This document shows positions 206 to 60,255 of a DNA stretch of 64,000 nt, piece by piece; within the stretch, counting starts at the first letter, position 1, and each line of letters begins with the position of its first letter. The notes beneath the pieces are model-generated. The model was not told the origin of the DNA and did no database searches. It saw only the letters and a program-made list of their open reading frames with translations. The DNA comes from an uncultured Candidatus Binatia bacterium (GTDB lineage: Bacteria > Desulfobacterota > Binatia > UBA9968 > JAJDTQ01). The position numbers and the translations under genes were made by a program. Location: positions 2,208,001-2,272,000 of the forward strand of contig OZ244070.1 of the NCBI GenBank assembly GCA_965215605.1. Direction: 5' to 3'.

Positions 206-286
206 ACCCCATCGCGTGCCCGCTCGTTGCACGGTCCCCGGTCACTGGCAATACGGACCCGCGTTCCGGCATCCCATCCTGACCGT

Positions 287-760
287 TTAATCGTTATCCT
301 GGATCTGGCCGGTCAACGTCATCGTGCTCGGCATGGACCGGATGCCGGATGTCGGTGTGACCCATCCGGTGACGTCGCGGTAGAGGCCGTTAACCTCCTG
401 GTCGTAGAGCTTGAGCTTGAATACTTCCGGGTCTTCTCCATTGCTGTCGTCAATCGTGTTCACAGAGATCTTCTTGGTCTTGACCCCCGAGTTGAAGGTC
501 ACGGTGCCGGTGGTCTCTTCGTAATCCTCGCCCTTGACGGCAGCGGCGTCTTCCGTCTTGTACTTGTAGCGCACCGCCCAGCCGTTCGGTGCAGCCCCGA
601 GTTCGACGGTGAACTCCATCGTGTCGCCCTCGGTTGCGCCGGCGTCCACGGCGTCGGCCGCTTGCGGCGCCACGAGCGCAGCACCCCCCAACAGCACGAC
701 GCCGGCAAGGGCGGCGCGCCATGCGGTCCATTCGGTTTTCCTGTTCGATTCCTGTCTCAT
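287..760 (-). CDS. Small secreted single Calx-beta-like domain protein
   Basis: Signal-peptide-like AALAGVVLLGGAALVAPQAADA, then ATEGDTMEFTV...YKTEDAAAVKGEDYEETTGTVTF...IDDSNGEDPEVFKLKL (Calx-beta pattern); GGAGGG RBS-like site before ATG 760. Confidence 0.7.
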   Translation of the reverse strand: MRQESNRKTEWTAWRAALAGVVLLGGAALVAPQAADAVDAGATEGDTMEFTVELGAAPNGWAVRYKYKTEDAAAVKGEDYEETTGTVTFNSGVKTKKISVNTIDDSNGEDPEVFKLKLYDQEVNGLYRDVTGWVTPTSGIRSMPSTMTLTGQIQDND

Positions 761-855
761 GATCCTCCCTCCTTCTCGGGCGTGGGAGCCCGGTCGCGGG
801 CCGATTGCGCCCTGGACGAGTCGAAAGCTAGCCTGCATTATTCGCCACACCCACC

Positions 856-1927: not shown

Positions 1928-2124
1928 GTGCGTCGTTCCCCTTTGCTTTTGCTGGTGGCCCCTGTGTTTAGGGACCGGACGGACGACTGCGCGATGCGCA
2001 TGCCGAATTCCCTACATCTACTACGCGACAGGTAGATGGGTCCATCCGTCGGAACTTCTCAAGAGACAACTTGATCAGGTATGGTATCGGTCGCGGTCAC
2101 GACGAACTCAAAGGTAGGTTACCG

Positions 2125-5100
2125 ATGCCGCCTAACCATGTAATTGACAACCATCACGAGACTCTGGCGGATCACCTTCGCCCCCGAATGATCAACGCGG
2201 ACGAGCTGCGCATGGTTTCCGCGTATTTCTCAATATACGGGTATGCGCTGCTGGAAAACGAACTTGGGACCATCGGAAGAGTCCGTTTTCTGTTCGGCGA
2301 GCCGGATTCGGCGGCCGATCTTGATCCCGGCAAGCAGGAGTTCAAGTCTTTCGAGATGACGGAGACGGGACTGTCCCCGCGCCATCAGCTACAACAAAAA
2401 CACCTTGCGCTGCGCTGTGCTGATTGGATTCGTAGTAATGTCGAAGTCCGTTCCATCAAGCAGGTGAATTTTCTGCACGGCAAGATGTATCTCACGGAGA
2501 CACGGGACGGTGGCGACGCAGTGGTAGGCAGCTCGAATTTCACTAAACGGGGTCTGGGCGGTGCAGCGGACGCCAACCTGGAGATCAATCTGGCGGTCGG
2601 CGCCGAGCCTCCGGGCGCGTGGCTTGACCTCAAGCAATGGTTCGATGCTCTTTGGCGGGACACCGGCCGCACAAGAGACGCCAAGGACGACGTATTGAAA
2701 GCGCTTGCCCGTGTCGGTCGCGACTACGCGCCGGAGTTCGTTTATTACAAGACGCTCTACGAATTGTTTCGGAGCGAACTGGAAGCCCAGAGAGCCGGTG
2801 AGAGCGACCTGCAGACACGTCTTTACGATACCGGGATCTGGAGGACGTTGTACGACTTCCAGAAAGATGCGGCGAAAACGGTCATCACTCGACTTGAGCG
2901 TCAGGGCGGATGCATCCTGGCGGACAGCGTGGGGCTTGGCAAGACCTACACGGCGCTGGCCGTCATCAAGTACTACGAACTCCGTTTCAACGCGCGGGTG
3001 CTCGTGCTGTGTCCGAAGAAGCTTAACGAGAACTGGATTCTGTATCCGGCCGCGAACGCCCGCAAGCAGAATCCGTTCATGGACGACCGCTTCGCGTTTA
3101 CAGTCCTGTCCCATACCGACTTGTCTCGAAGCAGCGGCGAGGCCGGTTCTATCAATCTCGCGGACTTCGACTGGAGTGGCTTTCATTTGGTTGTCATCGA
3201 CGAATCACACAACTTCCGGAACGCCACGGCAGGGCGCAAGGATAACCAAGGCAACGTCGTCAAGATGAGTCGCTATGAACGGCTGCTTGAGGAGGTCATC
3301 GCCAAAGGCGGCGACACCAAGGTGCTGATGCTGTCGGCGACCCCGGTCAACACGTCGCTCACCGATCTGCGCAATCAGATTGACCTGATGACTAACAAAC
3401 GCGAGGACTCGTTCCATGAGACTCTGGGTATTGGCAACTTCCGCAACTTGCTCGACGCCGCGCAGCGCAAGTTCAAGACTTGGGAGACGAGGAACAGAAC
3501 ACGGGACAAGACAAGCCTAGTCGAAGAGTTGGGAGCAGATTTCTTCAATCTCCTCGCGCGCGTCTCCATTGCCCGATCACGCAGGCAGATCAAGAAGTTT
3601 TACGCTGAGTCCATGCGCGAGATCGGCAGCTTTCCGTCACACGAAGTGCCAGAGAATCGCTATCCGCCGACGGACCTTCAGGGCGGGCTATCCTACAAGC
3701 TATTGAACGACCAGATCTCTTCGTTCTCCCTTTCTATCTACAATCCTTCCGCCTATGTCCTCAGCGAGGATGTGCTGCGCGACCTTCAGCAAGAAAAGGA
3801 AAAGTACCGTTTCAATCAGGCCGACCGCGAGAAGTTCCTGATCGGAATGATCCGAACGAACTTTCTGAAGCGGTTGGAGAGCTCCGCCCGGTCGTTGGCC
3901 CTGACGCTTGAACGCACGGTTGCCAAGATCGACGATCTTGCAGCGAAGATCGACGAATTCGACCGGAACCGAACTGAGTTGGACATCGAGACCGACGTGA
4001 CCCCCGAAGACGATGAGGACGATGAGGAGTTTCTCGTCAATCGAGGACGCCACCCTTTCCATTTGAAAGACCTGGACCGGTCCCGTTGGAAGGACGACCT
4101 CCTGCGGGATCGGGCTGTACTTGACAAAGCGCGTCGGAGCGTGGAACTGGTGACACCGGATCGGGACGGGAAGCTGGCTGCGGTTGTCGAAGATGTTCGT
4201 CGCCGGGCCTCAAGACCCACTACGGACAAGGACGGCCGCACCAACCGCAAGCTGCTCATCTTCACCACGTTCAAGGACACCGCCGAATACCTCTACGAGA
4301 ACCTCGAACCTGTGGCTCGTGAATCGAATCTGACCGTCGCTATGGTTGCCGGAGATGTAGTGCGGGCGCCTGAAGGCCCCAGTGATTTCCAGACGATTCT
4401 CGCCCGTTTTGCGCCTCGAGCGCGCGGAATACACAACGAGAAGAATGAACTCGATCTCCTGATCGCCACCGACTGCATTTCCGAAGGCCAGAATCTCCAG
4501 GACTGCGACACTGTCCTGAACTACGACATCCACTGGAATCCCGTGCGTCTTATCCAGCGCTTCGGACGCATCGACCGCATCGGTAGCCGTAGCCAGTCGG
4601 TGCGCATGATCAACTACTGGCCCACCAACGACATGGAGTTGTACCTGAATCTCCGGCACCGTGTGCAGGCGAGAATGGCGCTGGCGGACGCCGCGGCTAC
4701 AGGTGACGAGAACCGCCTGGCTGGTGATGCGGAAGAACAGGCACAGATGGAACTGAATTTCCGTGATGAACAACTCAAGCAATTGAAGAACGAAATCATC
4801 GATCTCGACGACATGGCGGACAGCGTAGTGATTAGCGACTTCACCCTGGACTATTTCCTGTCGCAACTCCTGCGTTATCTCGAACACAACAGGAAGGAAC
4901 TCGAAGCGGCTCCCAACGGGATCTACGCGGTCACCCAGGCAGAAGAGGGGAACCCCAGGTCCGGGGTTCTCTTCCTCCTGCGGCAGCGCAACGTCGCGGA
5001 CGGCGACGGCGCTCGTCATGTAAGCCTCACGTCACCCTGGTTTCTGGTCTTCATGCGCGACGATGGCACTGTGGGTCTGAGCCACATCAAGGCCCGCCAG

Positions 5101-5376
5101 GCCCTCGACTTGTTCGAGCGCGTGGCAGCAGGACAAGTGGAGTCATTACAGGAGCTCTGTGACGCCTTCGATGCGGAGACGCGTCAGGGTCGTGACATGA
5201 GCCGATACGACGCTCTGCTGGAAATCGCGGTGACAAGCATCGTCGGCCAATTCAAGGAAGTGGTCCGGCAGCATGTCGGCAAGCGCGGGTTCACGATTCC
5301 CAAGAAGGTTGAGCAACCGGCGGAACTCGACGACTTTGAGTTGGTAACTTGGCTGATCGTCAGGAATGGTACGTGA
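2125..5376 (+). CDS. PLD-nuclease + SNF2-family helicase fusion
   Basis: N-terminal LHGKMY...GSSNFT...NLEIN (PLD HxK motif); helicase motifs LADSVGLGKT, DESH, SATP, HWNPVRLIQRFGRIDRIG. Confidence 0.9.
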   Translation: MPPNHVIDNHHETLADHLRPRMINADELRMVSAYFSIYGYALLENELGTIGRVRFLFGEPDSAADLDPGKQEFKSFEMTETGLSPRHQLQQKHLALRCADWIRSNVEVRSIKQVNFLHGKMYLTETRDGGDAVVGSSNFTKRGLGGAADANLEINLAVGAEPPGAWLDLKQWFDALWRDTGRTRDAKDDVLKALARVGRDYAPEFVYYKTLYELFRSELEAQRAGESDLQTRLYDTGIWRTLYDFQKDAAKTVITRLERQGGCILADSVGLGKTYTALAVIKYYELRFNARVLVLCPKKLNENWILYPAANARKQNPFMDDRFAFTVLSHTDLSRSSGEAGSINLADFDWSGFHLVVIDESHNFRNATAGRKDNQGNVVKMSRYERLLEEVIAKGGDTKVLMLSATPVNTSLTDLRNQIDLMTNKREDSFHETLGIGNFRNLLDAAQRKFKTWETRNRTRDKTSLVEELGADFFNLLARVSIARSRRQIKKFYAESMREIGSFPSHEVPENRYPPTDLQGGLSYKLLNDQISSFSLSIYNPSAYVLSEDVLRDLQQEKEKYRFNQADREKFLIGMIRTNFLKRLESSARSLALTLERTVAKIDDLAAKIDEFDRNRTELDIETDVTPEDDEDDEEFLVNRGRHPFHLKDLDRSRWKDDLLRDRAVLDKARRSVELVTPDRDGKLAAVVEDVRRRASRPTTDKDGRTNRKLLIFTTFKDTAEYLYENLEPVARESNLTVAMVAGDVVRAPEGPSDFQTILARFAPRARGIHNEKNELDLLIATDCISEGQNLQDCDTVLNYDIHWNPVRLIQRFGRIDRIGSRSQSVRMINYWPTNDMELYLNLRHRVQARMALADAAATGDENRLAGDAEEQAQMELNFRDEQLKQLKNEIIDLDDMADSVVISDFTLDYFLSQLLRYLEHNRKELEAAPNGIYAVTQAEEGNPRSGVLFLLRQRNVADGDGARHVSLTSPWFLVFMRDDGTVGLSHIKARQALDLFERVAAGQVESLQELCDAFDAETRQGRDMSRYDALLEIAVTSIVGQFKEVVRQHVGKRGFTIPKKVEQPAELDDFELVTWLIVRNGT

Positions 5377-8226
5377 AGCGGAGCCTTCAAGCGCGGTGTC
5401 GTCATGGTGGATCGAACTGAAATACAGGCTGTGTTACGCGGTTTGTCGACCGGCGATCTGCTAGAAGGGGCCACGGGTCTCCTTGAAACCCTCGGCTATG
5501 CAAGTGATCGGACCCTCGCGGATTCTGGGGACCCGCGGGCCTTTTTTGCAGATTCTCCTTCTACTACGGAATCCCGTCACAACCTGCTGGACAAGGCCAA
5601 GGTCATTCGTCTGATCTTTCAGGTTACGGATGAAGAGATTCGATCCGGTGCTGGAGCACGTTTCATGGAATTCGATGGCGCCGGGTTCGATCAAGGGAGG
5701 ACGGATTGTTTTCTGTTCGTCGCTGTGGAATTGCGCGACGAATGGTATGCCCGCTCTACCTATGCCGGGATGACGCGGGAGATCAACCGGGCTTTTGAGG
5801 GAGCGCCCGCGGTCGTGCTCTTCCGCGCTGGACGACGTCTCACTATGGGTTTCGCTGGCCGGCGCGCCCACCAACGCGATGCCGCCCAAGACGTGGTGCA
5901 GGAAGTGAACCTGATCAAGGACATCAAACTTGCAACTCCCCATCGCGCTCACATCGATACGTTGGCCGAACTGTCCCTTCCGGCGATGCTCGCCTGGATG
6001 GACGCGCACGACAAACCCCATAATTTCGACGGCCTTCTCACGGCATGGCTCGCAATACTGAGCACCGAGGAACTCAACAAACGCTTCTACAAGGAACTGT
6101 TCGGTTGGTTCCAACGCGCCGTCAACGAGGCGAAATTCCCCCGCGACAAGAACAAGACCCTGCCTAAGGAGGAGCACATCATCCGCCTGATCACACGGTT
6201 GATGTTCATCTGGTTCATCAAGGAGAAAGGTTTGGTTGCAGGAGACATCTTTGTTGAGACACGGGTTCGCCATTTGTTGAAGGGCTATGATCCTGCGGCC
6301 GGCGATTCCTGGTATCGCGCCGTACTGCAGAACCTCTTCTTCGCTACCCTCAACACCGAGATCGGCAAACGTCGGTTCAGCACCGCCAGTCGAACCACCC
6401 ACCGGGTATTCTCCCTGTATCGGTACAAGGATCTGATGGCGAAACCGGACGAATTGATGGCGCTGTTCGAGAAGACCCCGTTCATCAACGGAGGCCTGTT
6501 CGAGTGCCTGGACAGTGGCGACAGGTCCCAAACCGCGAAGGGTTACCGCATCGACTGTTTCTCGGACAACCTGGAACACCGTGCCAAGTTGAGTGTGCCC
6601 AATCGCCTGTTTTTCGACGAAAAAGGGTTGATTCCGATCTTTGAACGCTACCGATTCACGGTAGAAGAAAACACACCCGTCGAGCAGGAAGTGGCGCTGG
6701 ATCCCGAACTGCTCGGCAAAGTGTTCGAAAACCTCCTCGCCGCCTACAACCCGGAAACGCGCGAGACGGTGCGCAAGCAGACCGGCTCCTACTACACGCC
6801 GCGGCCGGTGGTGAACTACATGGTTCGGGAGACAGTGGCTGCGGCGCTCGCAGAAAAGCTGAAAGCGGAGAATGACAAGGCCACGGAGTGGCGAGAACGT
6901 CTCGCGGGTTTGGTTGATGAAACCCATGCCTTCGGGAGTGACGACAACAGTTTTTTTGACGATGACAAGCGGCAATCGGTGGTCCGGCGCATTGCCGACC
7001 TGACGGTTCTGGACCCTGCCGTCGGCTCCGGCGCGTTTCCCATGGCCGTCCTGCATGCCTTGACGCTGGCACTCCGTAGACTGGACCCGGACAACCACCA
7101 TTGGGAGCAGGTCCAGCGGGACCGCGCCGGAACTCGCGCCAGACGTGCCTTCGACACCAGCGACGACGACACCCGTGGATTGGCGCTCAAGGAGATAGAC
7201 GAGACCTTCAAGCGCTATCGCGACTCTGACTTCGGGCGCAAGCTGTATCTGATCCAGAACACCCTGTTCGGCGTGGACATCCAGCCCATCGCCTGCCAGA
7301 TCGTCAAGCTGCGCTTCTTCATTTCGCTGGCGATCGAGCAGCAGGCGACCAAGGATTCTGCGGATAATTACGGCATTCGTCCGCTACCGAACCTGGAAAC
7401 CCGCTTCCTCGCGGCGAACACGTTGCTCGGAACGGCGGCGCAACGCAATCTTAGAACAGGGGAACAGGATCGCATCGAGGGCGAATTGCGAGAGAATCGC
7501 GAGCAGCATTTCAATGCCACCACTTGGGATGAAAAGACCGAATGCAGAAAGATCGACGAAAAACTCCGGACCGCACTGACGACAGAGCTCGTGCGTAACG
7601 CCGGCTTGTCTGGTGTCGAAGCAAGGAAAATTGCTGCGTGGGACCCATACGACCAGAACAGTGTGGCGGACTGGTTCGATCCGGAGTACATGTTCGGCAT
7701 CAACGACGGGTTCGATGTGGTCATCGGCAACCCGCCCTATATCCAGTTGCAGAAGAACGGCGGCCAGTTGGGGCAGTTTTACAGGAACGCCGGATACCAG
7801 ACGTTTGCCTCCACCGGCGACATCTACCAGCTTTTCTACGAAAAGGGCTGCCAACTGCTGAAGCCGGCCCGTGGACTGCTGGCCTACATTACGTCCAACA
7901 GTTGGTTGAAAGCGGAATACGGCAAACGGCTGCGCGGTTACTTCTCTGGTCAACACACGCCGCTGCGCCTGCTAGAGATGGGCAAAGATGTTTTTGACAA
8001 CGCCATTGTGGATACGAGCATACTGATTGCCCGCGAAGGGCGCGAGAGCGTCACCAGCAAGGCCGTGGATATGGACCGCTTGCCGGACAAGACGATCTTC
8101 CCACCGGCTGAACATCTTTGGGGTGAGCTGCGCCCCCGTGGCGAAAAGCCCTGGAGTGTGCTGTCATCCGTCGAGCAGGGTATTATGGACAAGATGGAGA
8201 AAGTTGGAACGCCGCTGAAAGAGTGG

Positions 8227-8238
8227 GATATCGCAATT
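8227..8238. repeat. 12-bp GATATCGCAATT, inverted copy at 13380-13391; outer limit of TRD-cassette homology
   Basis: Exact 12-mer on opposite strands, both in the DIAI reading frame. Confidence 0.7.
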
Positions 8239-8293
8239 AACTACGGAATTAAGACCGGCTACAACCGCGCCTTCATCATCGATAACATCACTA

Positions 8294-9447
8294 ATATCCT
8301 GTCCGATTAATTAGTTGAAAAACAATACAGGGTGTAGTACCATGGGGAGAAGGGTGAAGGAGGCACCATGGCACGACCACCAGCAGGGATCGTTTTGAGT
8401 GAGGAAGAGAAGGCGGAGCTTGAGAGATGGAGCCGGCGGCGCAATACGCGAGCGGGTCTTCATCTGAGAGCGGGCGTGATTTTGGATTGCGCGCGAGGTT
8501 ACACAGGGGAGGAGGTGGCGAAGCGACACCACACGAGCCAGCAGACGGTGTCGAAGTGGCGGGGGCGGTTCGCCCGAGAGCGACTGGCGGGACTGTCCGA
8601 TGCTGTACGAAGCGGCCAGCCGCGCAAGCACAACGACATACGGGTGCAGGAAGTGTTGGACGCGACACTGAATCGACGGCCGAAGCATGCCACGCACTGG
8701 AGCGTGCGGAGTTTATCCGAGGACCTGGATGTGCCACGGGATTTCGTTCATCGTGTATGGCGAGCATTCGGGCTCAAACCTCACCTGTCGCGAAACTTCA
8801 AGCTATCCACCGATCCGCACTTCATCGACAAGGTGCGGGACGTGGTGGGTCTTTATCTGAATCCGCCGGACAAGGCGCTGGTGTTGTGCGTGGATGAAAA
8901 AAGCCAGATTCAGGCATTGGACCGTACCCAACCCGGTTTACCGCTGAACTACGGCACACCCGAGACTCGGACCCATGACTATCGGCGCTATGGCACCACC
9001 ACGCTGTTCGCCGCACTGGAGGTAGCCACGGGTCGAGTGTTGGGCAAGCTGCACCGCCGGCACAGAAGCCAAGAGTTCATCGCCTTCTTGCGCCACATCG
9101 ACTCGCAGGTCCCGGCCGCCTTGGAAGTCCACCTCATTCTCGACAACTACGGTACCCACAAGACCGCCCAAGTCAAGAATTGGCTGTTACGACACCCCCG
9201 ATTCCACTGTCATTTCATCCCCACCTACAGTTCCTGGATGAACTTGGTGGAGCGCTTCTTCGCAACCTTGTCCGAACACCAGTTACGCCGAGGCACCTAC
9301 CGCTCCGTGGTCGCTCTGGAGAAAGCCATACGAAATTACCTCGACCTGCACAATCAACATCCCAAGCCGTTTCGTTGGACCAAGTCCGCTGATGCCATCA
9401 TTGACTCCGTCACCAGCGTTATTAAACGAATTAACCAGACACCACAC
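8294..9447 (+). mobile_element. IS630-family insertion sequence
   Basis: TA duplicated at 8292-8293 and 9448-9449; imperfect IRs ATATCCTGTCCGATTAATTAGTT / GTGTGGTGTCTGGTTAATTCGTT (rc). Confidence 0.92.
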
Positions 9448-9450
9448 TAA
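8368..9450 (+). CDS. IS630-family transposase
   Basis: HTH N-terminus; [46 protein letters not shown]. Confidence 0.95.
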
Positions 9451-9672
9451 CAGGTTGTTGAAAAACTCCGCCTGACGCGGATAACAGTAAGTAACATATT
9501 GGTATTGAGCGGGAGTAAAGGATGAGAGGAACGGATCCGCGTCAGGAAGGGATGTTCAGCTATGTGTCGCCGGCGGCGCGAGTGCCTGCGGACCATCCAT
9601 TGCGAGCGATGAGGTGGTCCTGGTTTGTAGGACAGGTAGGCGGCGGAGATAAGGTGTATTCCAGACGTTCGA

Positions 9673-10599
9673 TCATGCCGCCAAGGTCCCGTTTATCACG
9701 TCTTCGTGTTCCGATGGAACTGACAGAGGGGCGGGCGGGGTGTGAGGTCCGGCCTGCCTCTTGAGTCCTCGTTCGTAGGCCTCGGCCGGGGTGGAGCCGG
9801 CGAGGGCGGAATGAGGCCTTTGGGTGTTGTAGAAGTGGAGCCAGTTGGCGATGGTCCTTTGGGCGGCGAAGCCGTCCGAGAGCTCGTGCAGGTAGACGGC
9901 CTCGTACTTGAGGGAGCGCCACAGGCGCTCGATGAAGATGTTGTCCATGCACCGGCCCCTGCCGTCCATGGAGATGGCGACGCCGGCGTCCTTGAGCACG
10001 GAGGTGAACTCCAGGCTGGTGAACTGGCTGCCCTGGTCGGTGTTGAAGATCTCGGGAGGGCCGTAGCGTTCCAGAGCCTCTGAGAGGGCCTCGACACAGA
10101 AGCGGGCATCGAGGGTGTTCGACAGCCTCCAGGAGAGCACCCGGCGGGTGGCCCAGTCCATCACCGCCACCAGGTACAGGAAGCCCTTCTGGACAGGGAT
10201 ATAGGTTATATCTGCGGTCCACGCGTGATTGGGCCGTTCGATGGCGACCCCCTTGAGCCGATAGGGGTAGACCCGGTGCTCGGGATGCGGTCGGGTGGTC
10301 CGCGGCGCCTGGTAGATGGCCTGGAGACCCATCAGGCGCATCAGACGCCGCACCCGGTGACGACCCACACGGTCGCCCTCCCGCCACAGATGGCGGACCA
10401 TCTGGCGGCTGCCGTAGAAGGGGTACTCCAGGAACAGCTTGTCTATCCGGCGCATCAACGCCAGATTCTCCCCGCTCTCGCCCTTGGGCCGGTGGTACAC
10501 AGAGGATCGACTCACTCGAAGCAGATGGCATTGACGGCTCAAGCTGAGCTTGGGATGGCCGGGCTCGATCATCCCCCGGCGCTTCTCCCGGCTCACCAC
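9673..10599 (-). CDS. IS3 transposase OrfB (rve integrase core)
   Basis: WTADITYIP, FNTDQGSQFTS, DNIFIERLWRSLKYE; lies in the -1 frame relative to OrfA, with a T6 run at 10615-10620 (coding strand). Confidence 0.92.
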   Translation of the reverse strand: MVSREKRRGMIEPGHPKLSLSRQCHLLRVSRSSVYHRPKGESGENLALMRRIDKLFLEYPFYGSRQMVRHLWREGDRVGRHRVRRLMRLMGLQAIYQAPRTTRPHPEHRVYPYRLKGVAIERPNHAWTADITYIPVQKGFLYLVAVMDWATRRVLSWRLSNTLDARFCVEALSEALERYGPPEIFNTDQGSQFTSLEFTSVLKDAGVAISMDGRGRCMDNIFIERLWRSLKYEAVYLHELSDGFAAQRTIANWLHFYNTQRPHSALAGSTPAEAYERGLKRQAGPHTPPAPLSVPSEHEDVINGTLAA

Positions 10600-10874
10600 T
10601 TGAGCCCTTTGGCCAAAAAATCCCGCTCCACCGTCAGCTCCCCTATCTTCGCGTGCAGGTCCCGGACCTCCCCCTCGTGGTCTCCTCGTGCCCGCTCGGC
10701 TCCCTTCGAGAACACCTCCTTCATCCCCTCCACCGCCCGTTGCTTCCAGGTGCTCACCTGGTTCGGATGGACCTTGTGCCGCGCCGCAATCTCCTGGATC
10801 GTCTTGTCTCCGCGCAGCGCCTCCAGCGCTACCTTCGCCTTGAACTCTCCGCTGAACCGTCGTCGTGTGCTCAT
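10593..10874 (-). CDS. IS3 transposase OrfA (HTH)
   Basis: MSTRRRFSGEFKAKVALEAL...VHPNQVSTWK...LHAKIGELTVERDFL. Confidence 0.92.
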   Translation of the reverse strand: MSTRRRFSGEFKAKVALEALRGDKTIQEIAARHKVHPNQVSTWKQRAVEGMKEVFSKGAERARGDHEGEVRDLHAKIGELTVERDFLAKGLKW

Positions 10875-12557
10875 TGCGTATCCCCTCCCTAAGTCGGTGG
10901 AATACACCTTAGCAACCTGTCCGATTTTCCAGGACCACCTCAAAGAACCGGCAGCGGTTGATCGGGTCGGACATCGCGCGGGCCTTTTTCGGTCAGATAC
11001 TGGGCCAAGCCCGCGAAGGACGCCTGTTGTCGGATGAACACTTCAGCGTGGACGGGACGTTGCTGGAGGCGTGGGCGTCGATGAAGTCGTTCCGGCCGAA
11101 AGACGGAGGCGGACGGCGTGGTGGCGGTGGACGCAATGCCGAGGCGGACTTCCACGGCGAGAAGCGCAGCAATGCGACCCACCAGTCGAGCACCGATCCG
11201 CAGGCACGGCTGTACCGCAAGGGCCAGGGGCAGGAAGCGAAGCTGTGCTACCTGGGCCATGCGTTGATGGATAACCGCCATGGACTGATCGTCGATACCC
11301 GTACCACCGAAGCCGCCGGCCGGGCTGAGCGCGAGGCGGGCTTGGCGATGATTGCGGCGCGTCCCGGCATCGATCGGCTCACCCTCGGGGCGGACAAGGG
11401 ATACGATACAAAAGACTTTGTGGAGGGACTGCGCTGTGCCAACGTCAGTCCGCATGTGGCCCAGAACGACACCCACCGGCGTTCCGCCATTGACCGGCGC
11501 ACCACCCGTCACCGTGGTTACGCGGTGAGCCAGCGCATCCGCAAACGGATCGAGGAAGGCTTCGGCTGGGCCAAGACCATCGGAGGCATGCGCAAACTCA
11601 AGCACCGGGGCCTGGCCAAGGTGGACTTCCAGTTCACCCTCACCTTCGCCGTCTACAACCTGGTGCGACTCCGCACCCTGGGAGTCGGAGGTTGAGCATG
11701 CGTCCATGGCCACCGTGCGTCTGCGCCGGCTTCGTTCCCTTGAAATGGCCGGCGAAGCAAGTTCTGCTCCATGCCCTGAAGCCAGCTTTTCCATCGATTC
11801 TCTCACAAACGCTCAAATCTAGGCGTTTTTCCACGGCCTGCTAAGGAAGCGCTGGTGAGGGAGGATCCTCGGTCTGCCGAAATCATCAAACCGGTGTTGC
11901 GCGGCCGGGATATCCGCAGATACCGAGCAAAGTGGGCGGGACTGTGGTTGATCGCGACCTTTCCTGCTCTTGGAATCAACATTGACAACTATCCTGCGGT
12001 GAAGCGGCACTTGCTGTCTTTCGGCAAAGCGCGATTGGAACAATTCGGTAAGATCCTGCCGGACGGCACGACATCCAGAAAGAAAACTGTATACTCGTGG
12101 TACGAATTACAGGATACTTGCGCTTACCACGCAGCGTTTCGGCACGAGAAACTGCTTTGGATGGACATGTCCAATGAGGGTCGCTTCGCCTACTCCAACA
12201 CCGAAATCTACTGCAACGACAAGGGCTTCATCATGACAGGAACGGCTCTCAAGTTTCTTTGTGGGATTCTGAATAGCGCTCTTATCACCTGGGTCATGAG
12301 AAAGAACGCACTGACTACCGGATTAGGGCTTATACAGTGGAAGAAGTTCGCAGTGGAGCGGCTTTCTATCCCGCACATAACGGTCAGAGAGCAGCGCACT
12401 TTCATTGATTTCGTAGAACGTTTGCGAACAGATGACAGGTTCGCGACGAGTTTCGACCCACACGGTGTGGAAGTTGAGCTCAATCAACGCGTGTACTCAC
12501 TGTACAGCTTGACCCCTTCAGAGATCGCCGCAGTAGAGAGACACTGACCTGCTTCCT

Positions 12558-12584
12558 CACTTGCCCGATTCCGGGACCACCTCA
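12558..12584. repeat. Isolated degenerate IS3-type terminal IR
   Basis: CACTTGCCCGATTCCGGGACCACCTCA resembles AACCTGTCCGATTTTCCAGGACCACCTCA at 10914-10942. Confidence 0.55.
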
Positions 12585-12611
12585 ATGGAGAAGCAGCGTC
12601 CTTGGCCGTCG

Positions 12612-13391
12612 TCAATGATTTGTCGGACGATTGGGCTTTGCTGAAACGGCTCCCTTCAGAACAGCTTCAGATTCCTTGAAGGTGAGGCCGTAGAGCTTGC
12701 ATACGAGTCGGTCTATTTCCCTTTCCTTGTCGGTGGTGTTGACCGGCGGGTCTGAGGCCTTGAATTTTAGGACCCGATCGACCAAATCGACAAACGGTCG
12801 GCGGTGTGAGTTTGGTGCTTTTGGGATGGGTATGGCTTCTACGGAAGCACTGATCCATCGTGTTACACCCATGCCAGAGTTCAGGGCCGTTTTACCCATA
12901 AACCAGGTTATCAGCCTCGAGTTCAGCAACGCGCAGAGATATTTGATAGACGAACCAGACATCAGGAAGCCTGTGTTTAGGCAAAACGTACCATCCTTAT
13001 CGTAGGCAAATCGGCCTTCTTCTGTGAGGTCCATCCACAGCAGTTTCTCCTCCGAAAATACTTCGTGGTAAGCGCAATTACGAAGATTGTAAGGAGTTCT
13101 ACCCTTATCCTGCCGTTTTACCAATTGGGGATAGAAGCCATTCAGGTGGTCTTTGACTGAGGGATAGTCGTCAACATCGACAGGCGGAACATCACCGTAT
13201 CCGTTGTGCGCGTCAATCAACCACAGTCCCGCCCACTTTGCTCGGTATCTGCGGATATCCCGGCCGCGCAACACCGGTTTGATGATTTCGGCAGACCGAG
13301 GATCCTCCCTCACCAGCGCTTCCTTAGTGATGTTATCGATGATGAAGGCAGCATTGTAACCGGTCAGAATTCCTCGATAAATTGCGATATC
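12612..13391 (-). other. Silent alternative TRD cassette (open frame, C-terminal ~259 aa of the methyltransferase)
   Basis: DIAIYRGILTGYNAAFIIDNITKEALVREDPRSAEIIKPVLRGRDIRRYRAKWAGLWLI then diverges (HNG..KRQDKGRTPYNLRNCAY..EKLLW..LLNS); no MTase motifs upstream. Confidence 0.88.
13216..13349. repeat. 134-bp inverted repeat, right copy
   Basis: Reverse complement equals GCCTTCATCATCGATAACATCACTAAGGAAGCG...GGACTGTGGTTGAT. Confidence 0.92.
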
Positions 13392-13455
13392 GTTGGTCAA
13401 GTCTTCGCAGTCTACGAGGTGGATGACTCTCAAGTCCCAGAAACAGGAGTTTCCC

Positions 13456-14424
13456 ATGAGTCCGTCGGTGACGAATAGATCTGACATTCACAACACTGTC
13501 CTGTCCTCAGCAGTTGCCCCTAATACGCGACTGGCGTACAGCAAAAGTTGGGCGTGCTTCACCGCGTACTGCACAGACGAGCAGATCGGCGACCCCCTGT
13601 CCGCTTCTCCAGAAATCGTCGCCCGTTTTCTTCTGGACTGCGCTACACGGCCCCGTCTGGGGCGCGACGTACCGTTGTCCATGGGCACGGTCTTCGTCTA
13701 CAACAGTGCAATCACCAAACGGTTCACCGACGCTGATAAGGTCTCGCCCACCCACCACCCAACCGTCCGGGCAACTCTCAGAGGCTTGAGCCGCCTTACG
13801 GACGCCGCGCCGCGGCGGGTCAAGGCGTTGCGCGAGGAGCACGTGAGGGCCATGATCGCTCAGTGTCCCGACTCGGTTATCGGGATGCGGGACGCAGCCG
13901 TTCTCGCTCTAGGTTTCGCCGCTGCCCTGCGCCGGTCTGAACTCTGCGCGCTGCGCGTGGACGATGTGGCCATCCTCCAGCCGGGCCGTGCACACCCCCG
14001 GCGGATGTTGCTCACGATCCGCCGATCCAAGACCGACCAAACCGGCAAAGGCCATACGATCGCTGTCCCGGAAGGGAAGACGATCAGGCCCATCCACCGT
14101 GTGCGGGCATGGCTGGCGGCGTCCGGCATCACGCACGGGCCGTTGTTTCGGACGATGAAGCGGGGCGGCGCGGTGCAAGAGAGGCCACTGCACCATTCGG
14201 ACGTTCCGCGCTTGGTCAAGCGCTACGCTGCGTTGATCGGGCTAGATCCGAAAGAGGTGGCAGGTCATTCGTTGCGTGCTGGTTTTGTAACCAGCGCCGC
14301 GGCGCACCATGCGCGCCTCGACAAGATCATGGCTGTTACGCGCCACACCAACCCGGCCACGGTCATGAAGTACATCCGCGACGCCGACGCGTTCAGCGAC
14401 CATGCGGGCGATGCCTTTTTGTAG
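13456..14424 (+). CDS. Cre-like site-specific tyrosine recombinase
   Basis: AGGAG RBS; APNTRLAY SAM-like domain; catalytic LRRSEL, RRSKTDQ, GHSLRAGF, TRH, MKYIR. Confidence 0.93.
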   Translation: MSPSVTNRSDIHNTVLSSAVAPNTRLAYSKSWACFTAYCTDEQIGDPLSASPEIVARFLLDCATRPRLGRDVPLSMGTVFVYNSAITKRFTDADKVSPTHHPTVRATLRGLSRLTDAAPRRVKALREEHVRAMIAQCPDSVIGMRDAAVLALGFAAALRRSELCALRVDDVAILQPGRAHPRRMLLTIRRSKTDQTGKGHTIAVPEGKTIRPIHRVRAWLAASGITHGPLFRTMKRGGAVQERPLHHSDVPRLVKRYAALIGLDPKEVAGHSLRAGFVTSAAAHHARLDKIMAVTRHTNPATVMKYIRDADAFSDHAGDAFL

Positions 14425-14469
14425 AAACACCCATCTTCTAATGTGGCAGCCGTGCCGGTGGCCTTTCGG

Positions 14470-38439: not shown

Positions 38440-38676
38440 GGGCGAACCGGTGCCGGCGGCGGAGTCGGAGTCGGATTCGGTGCCGGTGCCGAGCGAGCGG
38501 GGTGGGCGGCGTCCCGGAAATCAGGCGACGGTATTGCCGGGCTGTGTTGTTCTGCGTCGCCCGGGACGCGGTGGTTGACCGCGTGTCGTGGATTACGTCC
38601 GCCGGCCGTCGACAGATTTCCGGGACGCCGCCCGCCCCGCTCTCAGCACGGCGGTGATTGCCGGCACGTGATGCTA

Positions 38677-38835
38677 GTGTCCTGTCCGGTTAGTTCGCAT
38701 GATGAGATGCGGAGGATTTTTTGTTGTCGGCAAGGCGCGATGACGAGCAGTGGCGGGCACCACGCGAGGAAGAGCAACGCAGCCGACGGCAAAAAAGACC
38801 CGCAGATTATTATGCGAACTAACCGGACAGGACAC
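38677..38835. mobile_element. 159-bp MITE of IS630 type
   Basis: 27-bp perfect inverted repeat CTAGTGTCCTGTCCGGTTAGTTCGCAT (38674-38700 / 38812-38838) including flanking TA; no transposase inside. Confidence 0.85.
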
Positions 38836-38847
38836 TAGGGGGAGTTG

Positions 38848-45257: not shown

Positions 45258-45447
45258 GGAACTCCTCCTGATGGTTCTCCCCACAGGTCCATCGAACCGA
45301 AAGCCACGATACACGAAACGGGCGGTGCGGGCGAGGGTCGTCACCCGAGTCGCGCCGCAAAGCGCATGGCCGTACCACAGTGTCAAATGCTATGAATGGG
45401 CACACTGAATGGAATGCGACTCCATCCGGACTTCTCAAGGGTGTCTG

Positions 45448-49038
<3,591 letters not shown>

Positions 49039-49283
49039 AAGTGAACGGTTTCTGTTGCGTTTTCAAATAGTTGCGTCTGGGCGACTCCTAATCTTCCGGG
49101 CTCTGACTACTAATCAGCGGGTCGCTGACTTCCGATTCGCCGCCTCTTGATTTTCAATCTTCCGCTCTTTGATTCGCACTCGTCATGGCTTATTCTTCCG
49201 GTCATACGACCCGTACAACTGGTATCAGCTACGGAACTCTGCCCAAGGTGATACATGAAACGTGGAGGCGTCGAGGCCGATGA

Positions 49284-49595
49284 GTGAACTTTCTGTTCTT
49301 CGGGGTTGTCGAGAAGACCCTCGTCGTATCCGCGCTGGAGATGAAGAAGGGCAGCGCTGAGGCGAAGGAACTTGCGGCACAACTTCAGGGCGGTGCGAAT
49401 TTCGCGGAAAAGCTCGTTCGTCGTGACCCCGGTCCTTCCAAGGTGTATTTCGTGCCCGTTGCCGTGTATGGCGGCAAACTAAACCGCGCCGAACGGGAGA
49501 GGTTGAAGCAACGTGAATGCAGGGTGGCGTTCCGCGGAGTTCATCACGAGATTCGTCTTGCCCGTTGCGGGAGTCCATTGAACACGCTTCTGTGA
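49284..49595 (+). pseudogene. Hypothetical protein fragment, PD-(D/E)XK-like, probably 5'-truncated
   Basis: FLFFG...ALEMKKG...QLQGGA pattern; in-frame upstream context not evident. Confidence 0.35.
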
Positions 49596-49644
49596 AGTGC
49601 ACGACGTTGTCGAGACGTATGGTACCCCTCATGCCTGCATCGGG

Positions 49645-49860
49645 CACTTTGGCGTAGCGTGTGTAAACCGCCATCCCGGGTCCGATGGCCGCTTGGGCGA
49701 GGTCCACCGGAGCGATGTTGCCGGCCTGGAGGTGGGCCAAGGCGGCGGGGAGTTCGGCCTTGAGCGCGGCGACGAACTCGCGCCGGGTGGCCAAGGGCGC
49801 GTCGTCCGGGCGCCGGCGACAGACCAGGACGATGCTGGAGGCGAGGGCGTTGGTGCCCAT
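49645..49860. repeat. 3' repeat block, near-identical inverted copy of about 56421-56636
   Basis: [14 protein letters not shown]...YAKV in both; terminal 41 bp GCCATCGGACCCGGGATGGCGGTTTACACACGCTACGCCAA identical. Confidence 0.88.
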
Positions 49861-50536
49861 GCCGATCATGCGGTTGGTGAGTTCGGTGCGCATGGGCCAT
49901 GTGCCCGTAACGGCGAAACCCGCACGAATCACGGCGTCAAGAAACGTCTCCCATCCAGTGCTGGCAGTCCCCGCTTCGCCCTTGGTCTCCGACTGCTTGA
50001 AGGCATAGTAGATCGTGCTTGGGAAACTGGGATGTGTATCCTGAGCCAATCGCGTCACGGCGCGCGTCATTCCCTCCATGAAAAAGGTCTCTGCCTTCAC
50101 TTTACTCCCGTGGCGGTATGGAGTGGCCACCAATTCCTCGGCCTTCGGCACAGCCACCGTGGCGAAGAGGCCTGGGAACGTTGATCGCAACGAACGCCGT
50201 AGCCATACGTAGAAAAAATCCGAGAGGTCAGCGTAACCGATGTTGTCGTAGTAGGGTGGATCCGTGGAAACGATTCGGGCAATAGACTGTTCTTGTACCG
50301 CAGCATCCACCAAGGTGGCCGTGCCGACGGAGTTAGGTACAAACGTCAATAAGGGGTCCATGACGCAAGCGGTCGCGGCGTCAACACTTCCCGTTGCCTT
50401 CGCCAAGAAGTTGGGTTCAGCATAATCCCAGACCATAGGGAGAGCTTGTCGCCCGAAGCAGTGTTGAGCTTTTTGTCCGACACCGTTCCACCGGACTAAG
50501 TTGTTGCCCGTCATTGCCAGCCGATCCACCGCGAAA

Positions 50537-50650
50537 GCCAGATACACTCCCACTGCCTCGGAATACGCCCGCGCCCCCGAGCCGCCGTCCCGCAGGGGGC
50601 GGTCGTCGTCAGCCATGGATTGGGCCGCCTCCGCGTAATCGTTTCTGACC
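50537..50650. repeat. 114-bp middle repeat block, inverted copy of 55631-55744
   Basis: GGTCAGAAACGATTACGCGG...GGAGTGTATCTGGC identical. Confidence 0.9.
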
Positions 50651-50992
50651 TGCTCGATGGCACCGCCCACCAAGTCGGAGAAGGTCGTCAAGGCAACCAG
50701 TTGGCGAGCCGTGAAGAGATCGCGCCACATGGTCATGCCATATTCTTGTACGCGGAATCCGAGCGCGCGTTCCGGTAAATTCGTTCCGGGGGTCCACTGC
50801 GGTTCCGCCCCATTCGCGACGGCTTCATGTTCAGGTGTTGGCGCCAAGTAAACCCGACCCCGGTCGCCTTCCGCTACAATCGCCATCAGCCTCCCGCCCA
50901 TGCGCCCGGATTTGGCCTCTGACCGCAGGTACTCGAACGGCAAGGGTGCGTCAGACATGAGGCACAGGAACGGCTTCCCGCTTCCCCCCGAT

Positions 50993-52110
50993 TTCGTCCC
51001 CGTCTTCACCTTCTCCTCATCCTTCGGCCTCCCCACCCTTACCTCGAACCGATACCGCCGTCCCTCAATCACCGGCTCGACATACGCCTCCTTCCCCTTC
51101 TTCGTCGACAACATGAACGTCGACGCCAACGGCACCTCCACCTCCGCATACGCAGGATTCGGACTCCTCACCGTCCGCGCCCACAGCCACGCGATCACCG
51201 TCAACTCCCGCCCCTCGTACCGCTTCAGGTCCGGCCGCTCCCGAACCATCTCCCCGGTCACCTCCACCTTCGGGTACAAATGCCCGATCCGTTTCTCCGC
51301 CTCGTCCCGCATCCACTGCCCGTAGTACCGCACGTCTTCCGCCAGCCCCTGCGCTCCCTTCCACTCCCGCTCCACCAGAGTTCTTTTCCCTGTCCCTCCT
51401 CCACTCCGAACCCCCGGGTTCACAGGCCCCCGCCCCGCAAACCGCGGCGGTATCTCGATCATCGCCTTGTTGATCAACACCGCCACCGGATTCAGATCGC
51501 TCGCGTGCGCCTCCAACCCCAATCGCTGCGCCTCCAATGGCAACGCTCCCCCGCCCGCAAATGGATCGTGAAACCCAGGCAGCTTCTCCCGGTCGTACAA
51601 CTCCTTCGCCCTTGGTTCATCCACGTTCCGCGCACACGCCCGCCGCCAACTCCGCCGTATCTCAGTCCGCGCCCGCTCCAGCACTACCTCGTTCGTCGTG
51701 TTCTCCCACTTCACCAACTCCTCGATCAGCCCGAACAACCGCTCACGCTCCTGCTCCGCCGCCACCCCCTCCAGCGTCGGCTCCGGTCCCATACCCAACT
51801 CCGTGCCCGCCACCGCCCGCTGCCCCTCCCGCTCCACCAGCCGCTCCTTCAATCGCCCCTCCGCCGCCTGCCTCCGGTCCGCGTCCGACAGCAACTCCTC
51901 CACGTACTCCGATGGATCGTCCACCATCTGCGCAAATATTACCGACCGCGCCGCCGCCAACGGTCGCCGCGCCCACCACAAATGCAGCGTGCTCGGATGC
52001 CCGTGCCGAATCGACTTCTCCCGCGCTGACGCCACGTTGATCGCCTCCAACGGCAACGCCACCTCGATCAACTTCTTCGTCTCTTCCATCCCTCCTCCAT
52101 TACCATGAAC
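50993..52110. repeat. 1118-bp inverted repeat (copy of 54171-55288)
   Basis: Boundaries read directly; identical translations in the mirrored sense and antisense ORFs. Confidence 0.93.
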
Positions 52111-52157
52111 TCGGAACAGCCCGATACATCAGCAAACGCACACAATGTCGGCGGCAC

Positions 52158-53153
52158 TTGCCGTGTGGCGGCATCGAAGAACTCCTGAAGCCGCTCGCCG
52201 GTGGCCCCGTTTGTCAAAGGAGACATCTCTTGACCACTCCTCACCTACGACAGTTCCAACTGAAGGAATACGGGTCGTCTTCCTACAGAAGCGCCACCGA
52301 TACCGCTCCCCTGTTCGAGGTCGTTGCCGAAGAGGTCTTTCGCCGCTACGGTCAGCGCTGGAAACCAACCACCGCCACCGTCAATCGTTCGTACCTGCGC
52401 AATCAAATCTTGCCATGGTTCCGGGGCCGGTCCATCGCCTCCATCACGCGCCGTGACGTGCAAGGCTGGCTGGCTTCCCGGTCCGCCACGCCGGCCGCGG
52501 CGAACCGGTCGCTTCCCATCCTTTCGGTGATCATGGGCCAAGCGGAAACGTACGGCTATCGCCCGGTCGAGACCAACCCCTGCGCGGGCGTCCGGCGCTA
52601 TCGACAAAGGGGCCGGGAGCGATTTCTCACCGTGGAGGAACTCCGCCGGCTTGGAGAGACCCTCGCCCAACGGGAATCTTTCGCGACCCTTCCCGCGGCC
52701 ATCGTCCGGTTGCTGTTGCTTACCGGTTGTCGCCAGAGCGAAATCCGGGCGCTCCGTTGGACCGAATACCGCGAAGGACACCTGTTCCTGGGCGACAGCA
52801 AGACCGGGCCGCGGACAGTGTGGTTGTCGGCCGCGGCTCGCGCGGTCCTCGACGACCTGCACCGTACGAGTGCTTGGATATTCCCGGCCGCGAGCGGCAA
52901 TGGTCCGCTGTCCACGGAAACACTGTACGGCTGGTGGCGTCCCGTGCGCGCGGCCGCCGGGCTGCACGACGTCCGGCTGCACGACCTGCGTCACAATTAC
53001 GCCAGCTTCGCCCTGCGCCAAGGTGAAACCGTGTTGACCATCGGGCGCCTTCTTGGGCATCGCGACCCTGCCACCACCTTGAAGTACATCCACTTCGCCG
53101 ACACGCTGGCGCAGGATGCGGTCGCAAAGGTGGGCGGGGTTCTGGCGGGTTGA
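52158..53153 (+). CDS. Tyrosine recombinase/integrase 1
   Basis: LLLLTGCRQSE, DSKTG, HDLRHNYAS, LLGH, TLKY; true start uncertain and no arm-binding domain seen. Confidence 0.9.
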   Translation: MPCGGIEELLKPLAGGPVCQRRHLLTTPHLRQFQLKEYGSSSYRSATDTAPLFEVVAEEVFRRYGQRWKPTTATVNRSYLRNQILPWFRGRSIASITRRDVQGWLASRSATPAAANRSLPILSVIMGQAETYGYRPVETNPCAGVRRYRQRGRERFLTVEELRRLGETLAQRESFATLPAAIVRLLLLTGCRQSEIRALRWTEYREGHLFLGDSKTGPRTVWLSAAARAVLDDLHRTSAWIFPAASGNGPLSTETLYGWWRPVRAAAGLHDVRLHDLRHNYASFALRQGETVLTIGRLLGHRDPATTLKYIHFADTLAQDAVAKVGGVLAG

Positions 53154-53159
53154 CAACAG

Positions 53160-54164: not shown

Positions 54165-54170
54165 TTGTCG

Positions 54171-57191: not shown

Positions 57192-57205
57192 CAACAGAGG
57201 CGATC

Positions 57206-57970: not shown

Positions 57971-58040
57971 GGGTCCGGGCGCAGAAGGGGCGACTTTGTG
58001 GGACGCTACGCGCACCGTTGCGGACTCTGATAGCAGCAGC

Positions 58041-58667: not shown

Positions 58668-58696
58668 GCCACTACGGCGGTAGCCAAAGATAAAAT

Positions 58697-58715
58697 GTTA
58701 ACCCCAGGGGTTAAC
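58697..58715. promoter_or_regulatory. Perfect palindrome, probable antitoxin operator
   Basis: GTTAACCCC-A-GGGGTTAAC in an AT-rich spacer 18 bp before the toxin start. Confidence 0.65.
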
Positions 58716-58733
58716 TGATTTGACAACTCGTGC

Positions 58734-60159: not shown

Positions 60160-60255
60160 TCAACCTTCCATCAAACCCAGGCCGATCGGGTTGCGCACTA
60201 CACGGATCAATCGCGAGCACACCCGATCCTGACGAAACATGGACCGAGGCGACGG

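What the first reader, a model, noticed from the sequence alone, without database searches (positions are those of the whole stretch)
5404..14424. Second, independent TRD-inversion switch: type IIG-like methyltransferase, silent inverted TRD and Cre-like recombinase
Seen: the native C-terminus (11844-12547, +) faces an alternative open C-terminus (13391-12612, -). They share a 134-bp perfect inverted repeat and then diverge (ATFPAL..RKKTVYSWYELQDTCAY vs DAHNG..KRQDKGRTPYNLRNCAY). A tyrosine recombinase starts 65 bp beyond the cassette. Joining 5404-8226 to the cassette gives an in-frame 1200-aa protein. Inference: a two-state specificity switch in a PLD-SNF2 + MTase system.
Basis: partly seen in the sequence, partly recalled or inferred. 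Interest (0 to 1): 0.75.

Follow-up and report, generated by a model that had tools for sequence, protein, structure and literature searches.

The report
Three-site methyltransferase shufflon, transposon-broken
A defence-type DNA methyltransferase gene faces an inverted spare copy of its DNA-recognition end beside a recombinase that likely flips the DNA at three sites to mix specificities; this copy is broken by nested transposons, so a flip would switch the enzyme back on, and the general kind of switch is already published.

Summary
(1) A 3.55-kb IS630/IS5/IS3 nest truncates the expressed methyltransferase at 968 aa; as assembled the perfect repeat is 26 + 112 bp, and 134 bp only after removing the nest. 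(2) It is not two-state. Twelve loci from several phyla share the layout (methyltransferase, inverted spare TRD, same recombinase clade), either middle module is expressed (6 vs 6), and three TRD modules reassort. Three in-frame candidate crossover sites (RTWW-N6-TWAYYRNGGR) mark module borders; the 6-bp spacer matches between partner copies in 12/12, 11/12 and 12/12 loci. (3) Here a flip at site a or b would restore a 1200-aa enzyme: OFF to ON. Contigs from the probable source sample hold one-sided recombinant junctions at sites b and c (1 of 4 runs each; weak). The nearest recombinase relatives flank a promoter-like invertible spacer with the same core site. The class (PLD-SNF2 plus Cj0031-like enzyme with programmed inversions) is published (Milman 2023, PMC9881135), and this scan noted it in another genome (e1-3521717). 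Type IIG membership is unproven: no nuclease domain was identified.

The parts
2071..5376 (+). PLD (HxKxxxxE, GSSN)-SNF2 helicase fusion, 1101 aa from the first TTG; likely the nuclease/motor partner
   Evidence: Pfam PLDc_2, SNF2-rel_dom, Helicase_C; PADLOC HKD+Snf2 E 9e-102; motifs located
5404..8294 (+). 5' part of the adenine methyltransferase (motifs DPAVGSG, NPPY) with TRD module 1 (K type, INYGIKTG); frame runs into IS630 and stops at 8310 (968 aa)
   Evidence: Eco57I; REase_MTase_IIG E 4e-87
8228..8247 (+). candidate crossover site a, expressed copy: ATAT CGCAAT TAACTACGGA
   Evidence: top hit in 64 kb with a profile trained without the window; spacer covariation
8269..8294 (+). 26-bp perfect arm (partner 13324-13349); holds candidate site b (8276-8295, read on -; spacer CATCAC), whose weak arm is the IS target CTAA
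8295..9446 (+). IS630-family element, CTAA duplicated (8291-8294 / 9447-9450); two further identical copies in the genome
   Evidence: contigs of 3 of 4 runs cross the left junction by 30 nt
9451..11840 (+). IS5-family element, CTAA duplicated (9447-9450 / 11841-11844); transposase cut by IS3
   Evidence: (I6)
9610..10942 (-). IS3-family element inside IS5; 11 near full-length copies in the genome including this one
   Evidence: (I12)
11841..11952 (+). 112-bp perfect arm (partner 13216-13327)
11843..12547 (+). stranded 3' part of the expressed gene: TRD modules 2 (F type, ATFPAL..WYELQD) and 3 (MDMSN..WKKF)
12114..12133 (+). candidate crossover site c, expressed copy: ATAC TTGCGC TTACCACGCA
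   Evidence: X20 junction
12559..12584 (+). IS3-end-like remnant between the two TRD stop codons
   Evidence: (D14)
12612..13391 (-). silent inverted TRD, 259 aa open, no start codon of its own at the domain border: modules 1 (R type, IYRGILTG), 2 (D type, DAHNG..YNLRN), 3 (MDLTE..TRW)
13062..13081 (-). candidate crossover site c, silent copy: GTAA TTGCGC TTACCACGAA
13323..13342 (+). candidate crossover site b, silent copy
   Evidence: X17 34-nt contig
13371..13390 (-). candidate crossover site a, silent copy: ATAT CGCAAT TTATCGAGGA; similarity to the expressed copy ends just upstream
13456..14424 (+). tyrosine recombinase, 322 aa, single copy in the genome; R159, K192, H271, R274, H297, Y306
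   Evidence: (XerD E 2e-6, Cre E 4e-6)

Best explanation
This is an invertible target-recognition-domain cassette of a PLD-SNF2 plus adenine-methyltransferase module, in which the adjacent tyrosine recombinase likely inverts the DNA between three nested pairs of in-frame sites (a, b, c) and so would reassort three TRD modules into up to eight alleles. Each site has a weak arm, a 6-bp spacer that must match its partner, and a stronger arm; different spacers at a, b and c would keep each site pairing with its own partner (inferred). In this genome three nested IS elements sit in the weak arm of site b of the expressed copy (shown), truncating the enzyme at 968 aa; inversion at a or b moves the nest to the silent side and gives a 1200-aa reading frame (computed), so the switch here would act as OFF to ON, with a reduced allele set. 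Methylation would mark self DNA and the PLD-SNF2 partner would restrict unmarked DNA (inferred, untested).
For: Layout recurs: 10 of 32 loci with a recombinase of 48% identity or more carry MTase-TRD / inverted TRD / recombinase, 4 more a silent-TRD fragment; 0 of 32 more distant recombinase loci have a TRD hit; 1 of 8 metagenome TRD loci adds another. Module 2 F is expressed in 6 of 12 loci and D in 6 of 12; modules reassort; near relatives L047 and L049 have modules 1 and 2 swapped (88-96% cross identity) with module 3 kept (93%). Spacer identical between copies in 12/12 (a), 11/12 (b), 12/12 (c); between loci 8/132 (a), 50/132 (c). Of 66 conserved degenerate TRD codon columns the only three invariant ones (ATT, ACT, GCT) lie in sites a, b, c. 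A profile trained on site a alone scores site c 5.3-18.1 bits and the unrelated promoter-switch repeats of congeners 13.5-17.8 bits. Site c scores under 5 in 6 of 6 single-TRD controls where it could be placed. Recombinant contigs at b (X17) and c (X20). Published precedent with long-read support.
Against: No recombinase assay; sites are inferred from sequence. No contig break at site a in any of 4 runs at depth about 5-12. The b and c junctions are one-sided, each in 1 of 4 runs of a single sample that is probably the source; library chimeras fit, and for b so does a separate IS630 insertion into the silent CTAA. Site a scores 10 bits or more in 3 of 11 single-TRD controls, so part of the motif follows from the protein. 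Site b scores only about 6 bits and is missing in L050. The site profile finds no matched pair at the long repeats beside other members of the recombinase clade (L029, L030, L032, L038), and 8 of 32 close recombinase loci show no repeat. Gene conversion also equalises paired sequences, and kin are not independent.
Confidence: 0.75

Rival explanations
1. Two-state switch: one crossover region, the long repeat, swaps C-terminus A for B.
For: The 134-bp (26 + 112) identity is the longest shared stretch here, and 4 of 12 loci show similarly long identity.
Against: In the other loci identity collapses to short blocks at a, b, c; modules 1, 2 and 3 reassort separately; an exchange within the 112-bp arm leaves 968 aa here.
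Confidence: 0.07
2. The modules shuffle by RecA-type recombination or gene conversion between the paralogous TRDs; the recombinase is a passenger or acts elsewhere.
For: Copies are about 50% identical in protein with long identical blocks; the window's recombinase groups with the congeners' promoter-switch recombinases rather than with other RM-linked ones (quick tree, SH-aLRT 94).
Against: Exchange points coincide with 6-14-bp identities too short for RecA (general knowledge); invariant synonymous codons sit in the arms; the recombinase lies about 65-210 nt from the silent cassette start in all 12 loci.
Confidence: 0.08
3. The locus in this genome is a decayed relic: the machinery once switched, but after the IS insertions it is fixed OFF.
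For: 3.55-kb IS nest, IS3-end remnant between the stops, a decayed remnant of the same element at the neighbouring position in G011 (L013), no site-a junction in 4 runs.
Against: Helicase, recombinase, both TRD frames and all site-a and site-c copies are intact; junctions at b and c appear in contigs. Compatible with the best explanation as to origin.
Confidence: 0.3
4. The recombinase is the integrase of the 12.5-kb island and acts on its ends.
For: The flanking genes are near neighbours in 13 of 13 congener loci laid, so the module is an insertion; the recombinase lies at its right edge.
Against: No direct repeat seen at the ends and no site-profile hit there; orthologues sit beside inverted cassettes or divergent gene pairs in unrelated hosts.
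Confidence: 0.05

Closest known systems
Programmed inversions in Cj0031-like Type II RM genes with an upstream PLD-SNF helicase gene (Bacteroides ovatus CP083813.1; also S. mutans CP044495.1), Milman et al. 2023, PMC9881135
   Same: PLD-SNF2 gene directly upstream of a large Eco57I/TaqI_C-type methyltransferase whose coding sequence is altered by inversion; long-read support in that paper (section 28 and find passages read; figures not visible).
   Different: Here the crossover sites are defined as three in-frame arm-spacer-arm sites; the host and recombinase clade are from marine (largely sponge-type) MAGs; the expressed copy is IS-broken. I could not compare proteins or repeat numbers with the B. 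ovatus locus.
Pneumococcal SpnIII/cod hsdS switch with tyrosine recombinase PsrA (PMC7096588 abstract; PMC7672463 passages)
   Same: One tyrosine recombinase inverting at three pairs of inverted repeats inside specificity-coding sequence to give several methylation alleles.
   Different: Type I HsdS with whole TRDs exchanged among three genes; here sub-TRD modules of one monomeric methyltransferase and a single silent copy.
Campylobacter jejuni Cj0031 Type IIG enzyme (PMC4889913 passages)
   Same: Eco57I + TaqI_C domain content; ON/OFF phase variation affecting methylation and phage restriction.
   Different: Varies by a polyG tract, not inversion; restriction is attributed to the same polypeptide, whereas no nuclease domain was identified in this methyltransferase.
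R64 shufflon (Rci, asymmetric sfx sites; recalled, no call)
   Same: Tyrosine recombinase beside inverted, start-less 3' cassettes; asymmetric sites with one conserved arm.
   Different: Swaps whole C-termini of a pilus adhesin using one spacer; here three different spacers nest within one domain.

Membership tests
Gene-altering programmed inversion of a Cj0031-like Type II RM gene (Milman 2023 class b) | Large Eco57I/TaqI_C methyltransferase gene as target | tested here: met
   Pfam Eco57I and TaqI_C, PADLOC REase_MTase_IIG; direct comparison with Cj0031 not run
Gene-altering programmed inversion of a Cj0031-like Type II RM gene (Milman 2023 class b) | Inverted repeats overlapping the coding sequence, with a shorter opposite-strand partial copy | tested here: met
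Gene-altering programmed inversion of a Cj0031-like Type II RM gene (Milman 2023 class b) | Adjacent PLD-SNF helicase gene and site-specific recombinase | tested here: met
Gene-altering programmed inversion of a Cj0031-like Type II RM gene (Milman 2023 class b) | Coexisting inversion variants within one population | tested here: inconclusive
   one-sided junctions at b (X17) and c (X20), none at a; contigs only. Both orientations are seen between genomes
Type IIG restriction-modification enzyme | Amino-methyltransferase motifs I and IV followed by a C-terminal TaqI-like TRD | tested here: met
   DPAVGSG at 537, NPPY at 776; TRD profile hits M.BseCI E 4e-13; model matches M.BseCI, MmeI, CamA
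Type IIG restriction-modification enzyme | N-terminal PD-(D/E)xK endonuclease in the same polypeptide | tested here: inconclusive
   no invariant PD..(D/E)xK pattern among 7 homologues; fold searches of the N-terminal model gave no significant match
Type IIG restriction-modification enzyme | DNA cleavage and methylation activity | not testable with these tools
   needs biochemistry or methylome
Tyrosine recombinase (Cre/Xer-like) invertase | R-K-H-R-H/W-Y catalytic set | tested here: met
   R159, K192, H271, R274, H297, Y306, aligned to XerD; roles from general knowledge
Tyrosine recombinase (Cre/Xer-like) invertase | Inverted arm-spacer-arm sites with matching 6-8-bp spacers | tested here: met
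   by sequence only:
Tyrosine recombinase (Cre/Xer-like) invertase | Catalyses the inversion | not testable with these tools
   needs assay
BREX-1 / DISARM class 1 | pglX/drmMI and drmD above family cut-offs, with pglZ/brxC or drmABC neighbours | tested here: not met
   PglX 58.6 vs cut-off 500 bits, DrmD 138 vs 610; no such neighbours in 1929-14465

The most novel reading that the evidence does not exclude
One marine-symbiont invertase clade reads a single short core site (RTWW-N6-TWAYYRNGGR) that is written three times, in frame, into one methyltransferase recognition domain, with three orthogonal spacers giving a 2x2x2 combinatorial specificity generator below the level of whole TRDs; the same invertase and site have been redeployed in the host genus as a promoter switch between two divergent envelope-protein genes; and in this genome transposons landing in one site's weak arm have turned the shufflon into a reversible OFF/ON defence switch.
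Probability: 0.45. Interest if true: 0.68.

Novelty: new member of a known kind. Interest (0 to 1): 0.5.

Why it matters
The class is known, but its crossover sites and allele logic were not given in the text I could read. Defined sites make it directly testable: a compact Cre-sized recombinase with three naturally orthogonal spacers, and a natural library of 24 TRDs built from three exchangeable modules for mapping sub-domain changes onto methylation specificity. It also suggests that uncultured marine symbionts use combinatorial phase variation of anti-phage methylation, and that one invertase lineage moves between defence and surface-gene switches.

Tried and rejected
134-bp repeat as an assembled feature: rejected. 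Island-end attachment sites: none seen. BREX/DISARM membership: rejected. Nuclease fold in the methyltransferase N-terminus: model pLDDT 77, VIA-align best Z 6.4 on one helical stretch, Foldseek no match at E 0.001: no verdict. Single-sequence PDB search with the silent TRD found nothing; the profile did. TRD model is mediocre (pTM 0.57), so modules were not mapped to base contacts; a search for the M.BseCI paper returned nothing relevant. The IS5 right junction is not bridged by any listed contig; no conclusion drawn. Plasmid collection: 2 single-TRD hits at 36%, not followed. Phylum draw: 5 of 400 other genomes have a TRD hit, each single within 1.5-kb flanks, used as controls. Promoter scan of 12500-13520: at chance level. 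The silent site-b score printed was one base out of register and is discarded. L043 was left out of the codon table (frameshifted copies). L035 and L011 are one locus, as are L040 and L013, counted once. The careful tree did not finish; only the quick tree was read, no clade test. Literature searches; none returned a paper on this recombinase clade or these sites; figures of PMC9881135 are not visible and its supplement was cut when stored, so it may show multi-site variants.
Full report
Observation. The two facing TRD frames, the quoted motifs, the recombinase start and the 1200-aa join are all in the sequence. The 134-bp perfect repeat is not: the window has a 112-bp arm pair and a separate 26-bp arm pair, because 3.55 kb of IS630, IS5 and IS3 sequence sits inside the expressed copy. 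Both IS630 and IS5 duplicated the same CTAA. The expressed frame therefore ends at 968 aa without most of its TRD; without the nest it would be 1197 aa. Contigs of 3 of 4 runs cross the gene-IS630 junction, so at least that insertion is not an assembly slip; the four runs are one sample, probably the source.

Context. The module (PLD-SNF2, methyltransferase, silent TRD, recombinase) is a 12.5-kb lower-GC insertion between two genes that lie 15-208 bp apart in 11, and about 1.3 kb apart in 2, of 13 congener loci laid. No direct repeat or site was seen at its ends. The methyltransferase is in 2 of 27 other genomes of the genus: G010 with one TRD and no recombinase, G011 with the full intact cassette. 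The closest recombinase hits lie in records titled Candidatus Binatia, so the host is probably of that group (inference).

Relatives. Of 66 recombinase loci, 32 are near full-length at 48% identity or more: 10 carry the complete two-TRD cassette, 4 a silent-TRD fragment, 4 a divergent gene pair, 6 other long inverted repeats, 8 no repeat (3 of these on short contigs). None of 32 more distant loci has a TRD hit; 2 partial hits were set aside. One of 8 metagenome TRD loci adds a cassette. Hosts named in the titles span Binatia, Rhodothermales, Thermodesulfobacteriota, Latescibacterota, Caldilineaceae, Opitutales and Poribacteria. In all 12 cassette loci one copy has middle module F and the other D; F is expressed in 6 and D in 6. 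Modules reassort: window K-F-S expressed / R-D-L silent, G011 R-F-L / K-D-S. L047 and L049 have modules 1 and 2 exchanged (88-96% identity crosswise, 45-59% like for like) while module 3 stays (93%), which needs crossovers at both ends of modules 1-2.

Crossover sites. Silent copies all begin at the same codon, and similarity to the expressed copy stops just upstream (1-8 of 15 nt). There each copy reads weak arm, 6 bp, TWAYYRNGGR. The 6 bp are identical between the two copies in 12 of 12 loci but match in only 8 of 132 between-locus pairs (0 of 200,000 permutations; kin not independent). A profile from this site a alone finds a second site, c, at the module 2/3 border (5.3-18.1 bits; spacer shared 12/12, 50/132 between loci, 37 of 200,000 permutations) and a weak reversed site, b, at the module 1/2 border (about 6 bits; spacer shared 11/12). 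Among 66 conserved degenerate codon columns in 22 TRDs, only Ile ATT (a), Thr ACT (b) and Ala GCT (c) are invariant, the next two also lie in arms, and all others are at most 86%. With the window left out of training, its three best hits in 64 kb are a, a and c; the other c ranks fifth, behind one background hit. Against: 3 of 11 single-TRD controls score 10 bits or more at site a, so the motif partly follows the protein; at site c all 6 placeable controls score under 5.

Independent support from another locus type. In 8 of 14 congener regions fetched, the recombinase's nearest relatives (77-83%) flank two divergent paralogous genes for signal-peptide proteins with no Pfam family ('porin-like' is my guess), separated by a 223-403-bp spacer. 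The repeat's inner end is RTAA CTCTGA TTACCAAGGAG, scoring 13.5-17.8 bits on the RM-trained profile, and the spacer faces the recombinase in 3 and away in 5 (L014 read by eye). Part of that arm is also a ribosome-binding site. The window's recombinase is sister to these in a quick tree (SH-aLRT 94); direction of transfer is not tested. The window's genome has one such gene, without recombinase or site. The profile does not explain the long repeats beside some other clade members.

Reads. X17 has a 34-nt contig (depth 3) covering 13324-13353 plus 4 other letters, with contig breaks at 8298 and 13324, which fits silent arm + 26 bp + IS630 start, the product of crossover at b (the 4 letters are not shown, so this is inferred). 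X20 has a contig that follows the expressed copy to 12131 and continues with the silent copy's 13063-13048, the product of crossover at c. Each is one junction in 1 of 4 runs; reciprocal junctions and any site-a junction were not seen. Library chimeras fit both, and a separate IS630 insertion into the silent CTAA fits the first. Weak support only.

Mechanism. Shown: anatomy, IS breakage, both orientations and module reassortment among relatives, spacer covariation, intact catalytic residues. Computed: inversion at a or b gives 1200 aa; at c or within the 112-bp arm alone 968 aa; c then a 1188 aa; 112-bp arm then a or b 1197 aa. Inferred: the recombinase performs these inversions; distinct spacers keep the pairs orthogonal; an intact locus yields up to 8 alleles; this locus toggles OFF/ON, with module F reachable only through an exchange in the 112-bp arm; alleles differ in methylation motif (the TRD resembles the DNA-binding domain of M.BseCI); PLD-SNF2 supplies restriction.

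Comparison. Milman et al. 2023 (PMC9881135; passages, section 28 and supplement search read, figures not visible) list Eco57I-domain genes as enriched inversion targets and confirm by long reads a Cj0031-like gene with an upstream PLD-SNF gene. That is the same kind. PsrA/cod (PMC7096588 abstract; PMC7672463 passages) is the functional analogue for one recombinase acting on three repeat pairs. Cj0031 (PMC4889913 passages) gives the ON/OFF and anti-phage precedent. PMC5903667 passages added nothing. Strict Type IIG membership is open because no nuclease domain was identified. Searches found no paper on this invertase clade or these sites. An earlier scan note reports the same kind in another genome.

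Verdict. A real inversion cassette and a new member of a published kind; richer than first read (three sites, shared core site with a promoter-like switch) but broken in this genome and untested at the bench. Interest 0.5.

Noticed in passing
L012, L014-L018, L020, L021 (congeners; e.g. L012 10407-13606): Divergent pair of paralogous signal-peptide protein genes (no Pfam family) with a 223-403-bp spacer found in both orientations next to the same recombinase clade: a likely promoter-inversion switch with core RTAA CTCTGA TTAC.
   Followed up: partly
window 45409-63543: Hma system (HmaA/B/C by PADLOC) with an inverted partial hmaB copy, nested inverted repeats (1135, 629, 212 bp) and two tyrosine recombinases; no hit to this finding's site profile.
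   Followed up: partly
L013 9693-10727: G011 holds a decayed remnant (5'-truncated recombinase, TRD module 3 fragment) beside the same right-flank genes as the window, besides its intact cassette elsewhere.
   Followed up: partly
window 12559-12584: IS3-end-like remnant between the two TRD stop codons.
   Followed up: no
L029 7001-13907; L038 7071-13953; L030; L032; L054: Other members of the recombinase clade sit between 2.9-kb inverted repeats or among several repeat pairs of unidentified genes; possible further switch types.
   Followed up: no
L023 10574-10587; L054 11833-11846: Single two-armed palindromic sites scoring on both strands, at the start of a long inverted-repeat arm beside the recombinase.
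   Followed up: no
L050 TRD copies, +133 from the D codon; window 11913-11932 / 13236-13255: L050 lacks site b but has a matching site at D-I-x-R-Y in both copies; the window's 112-bp arm has a weaker version (8-10 bits): a possible alternative site b'.
   Followed up: partly
window 233-795: Calx-beta domain gene (287-874, -) with a 95% identical copy about 8.5 kb upstream in the genome.
   Followed up: no
window 9451-11840: The IS5 transposase appears to lack an internal stretch at the IS3 insertion and no target duplication flanks IS3, suggesting an adjacent deletion.
   Followed up: no
window 38495-38838: Two short inverted-repeat elements (37 and 48 bp arms) in an intergenic region.
   Followed up: no
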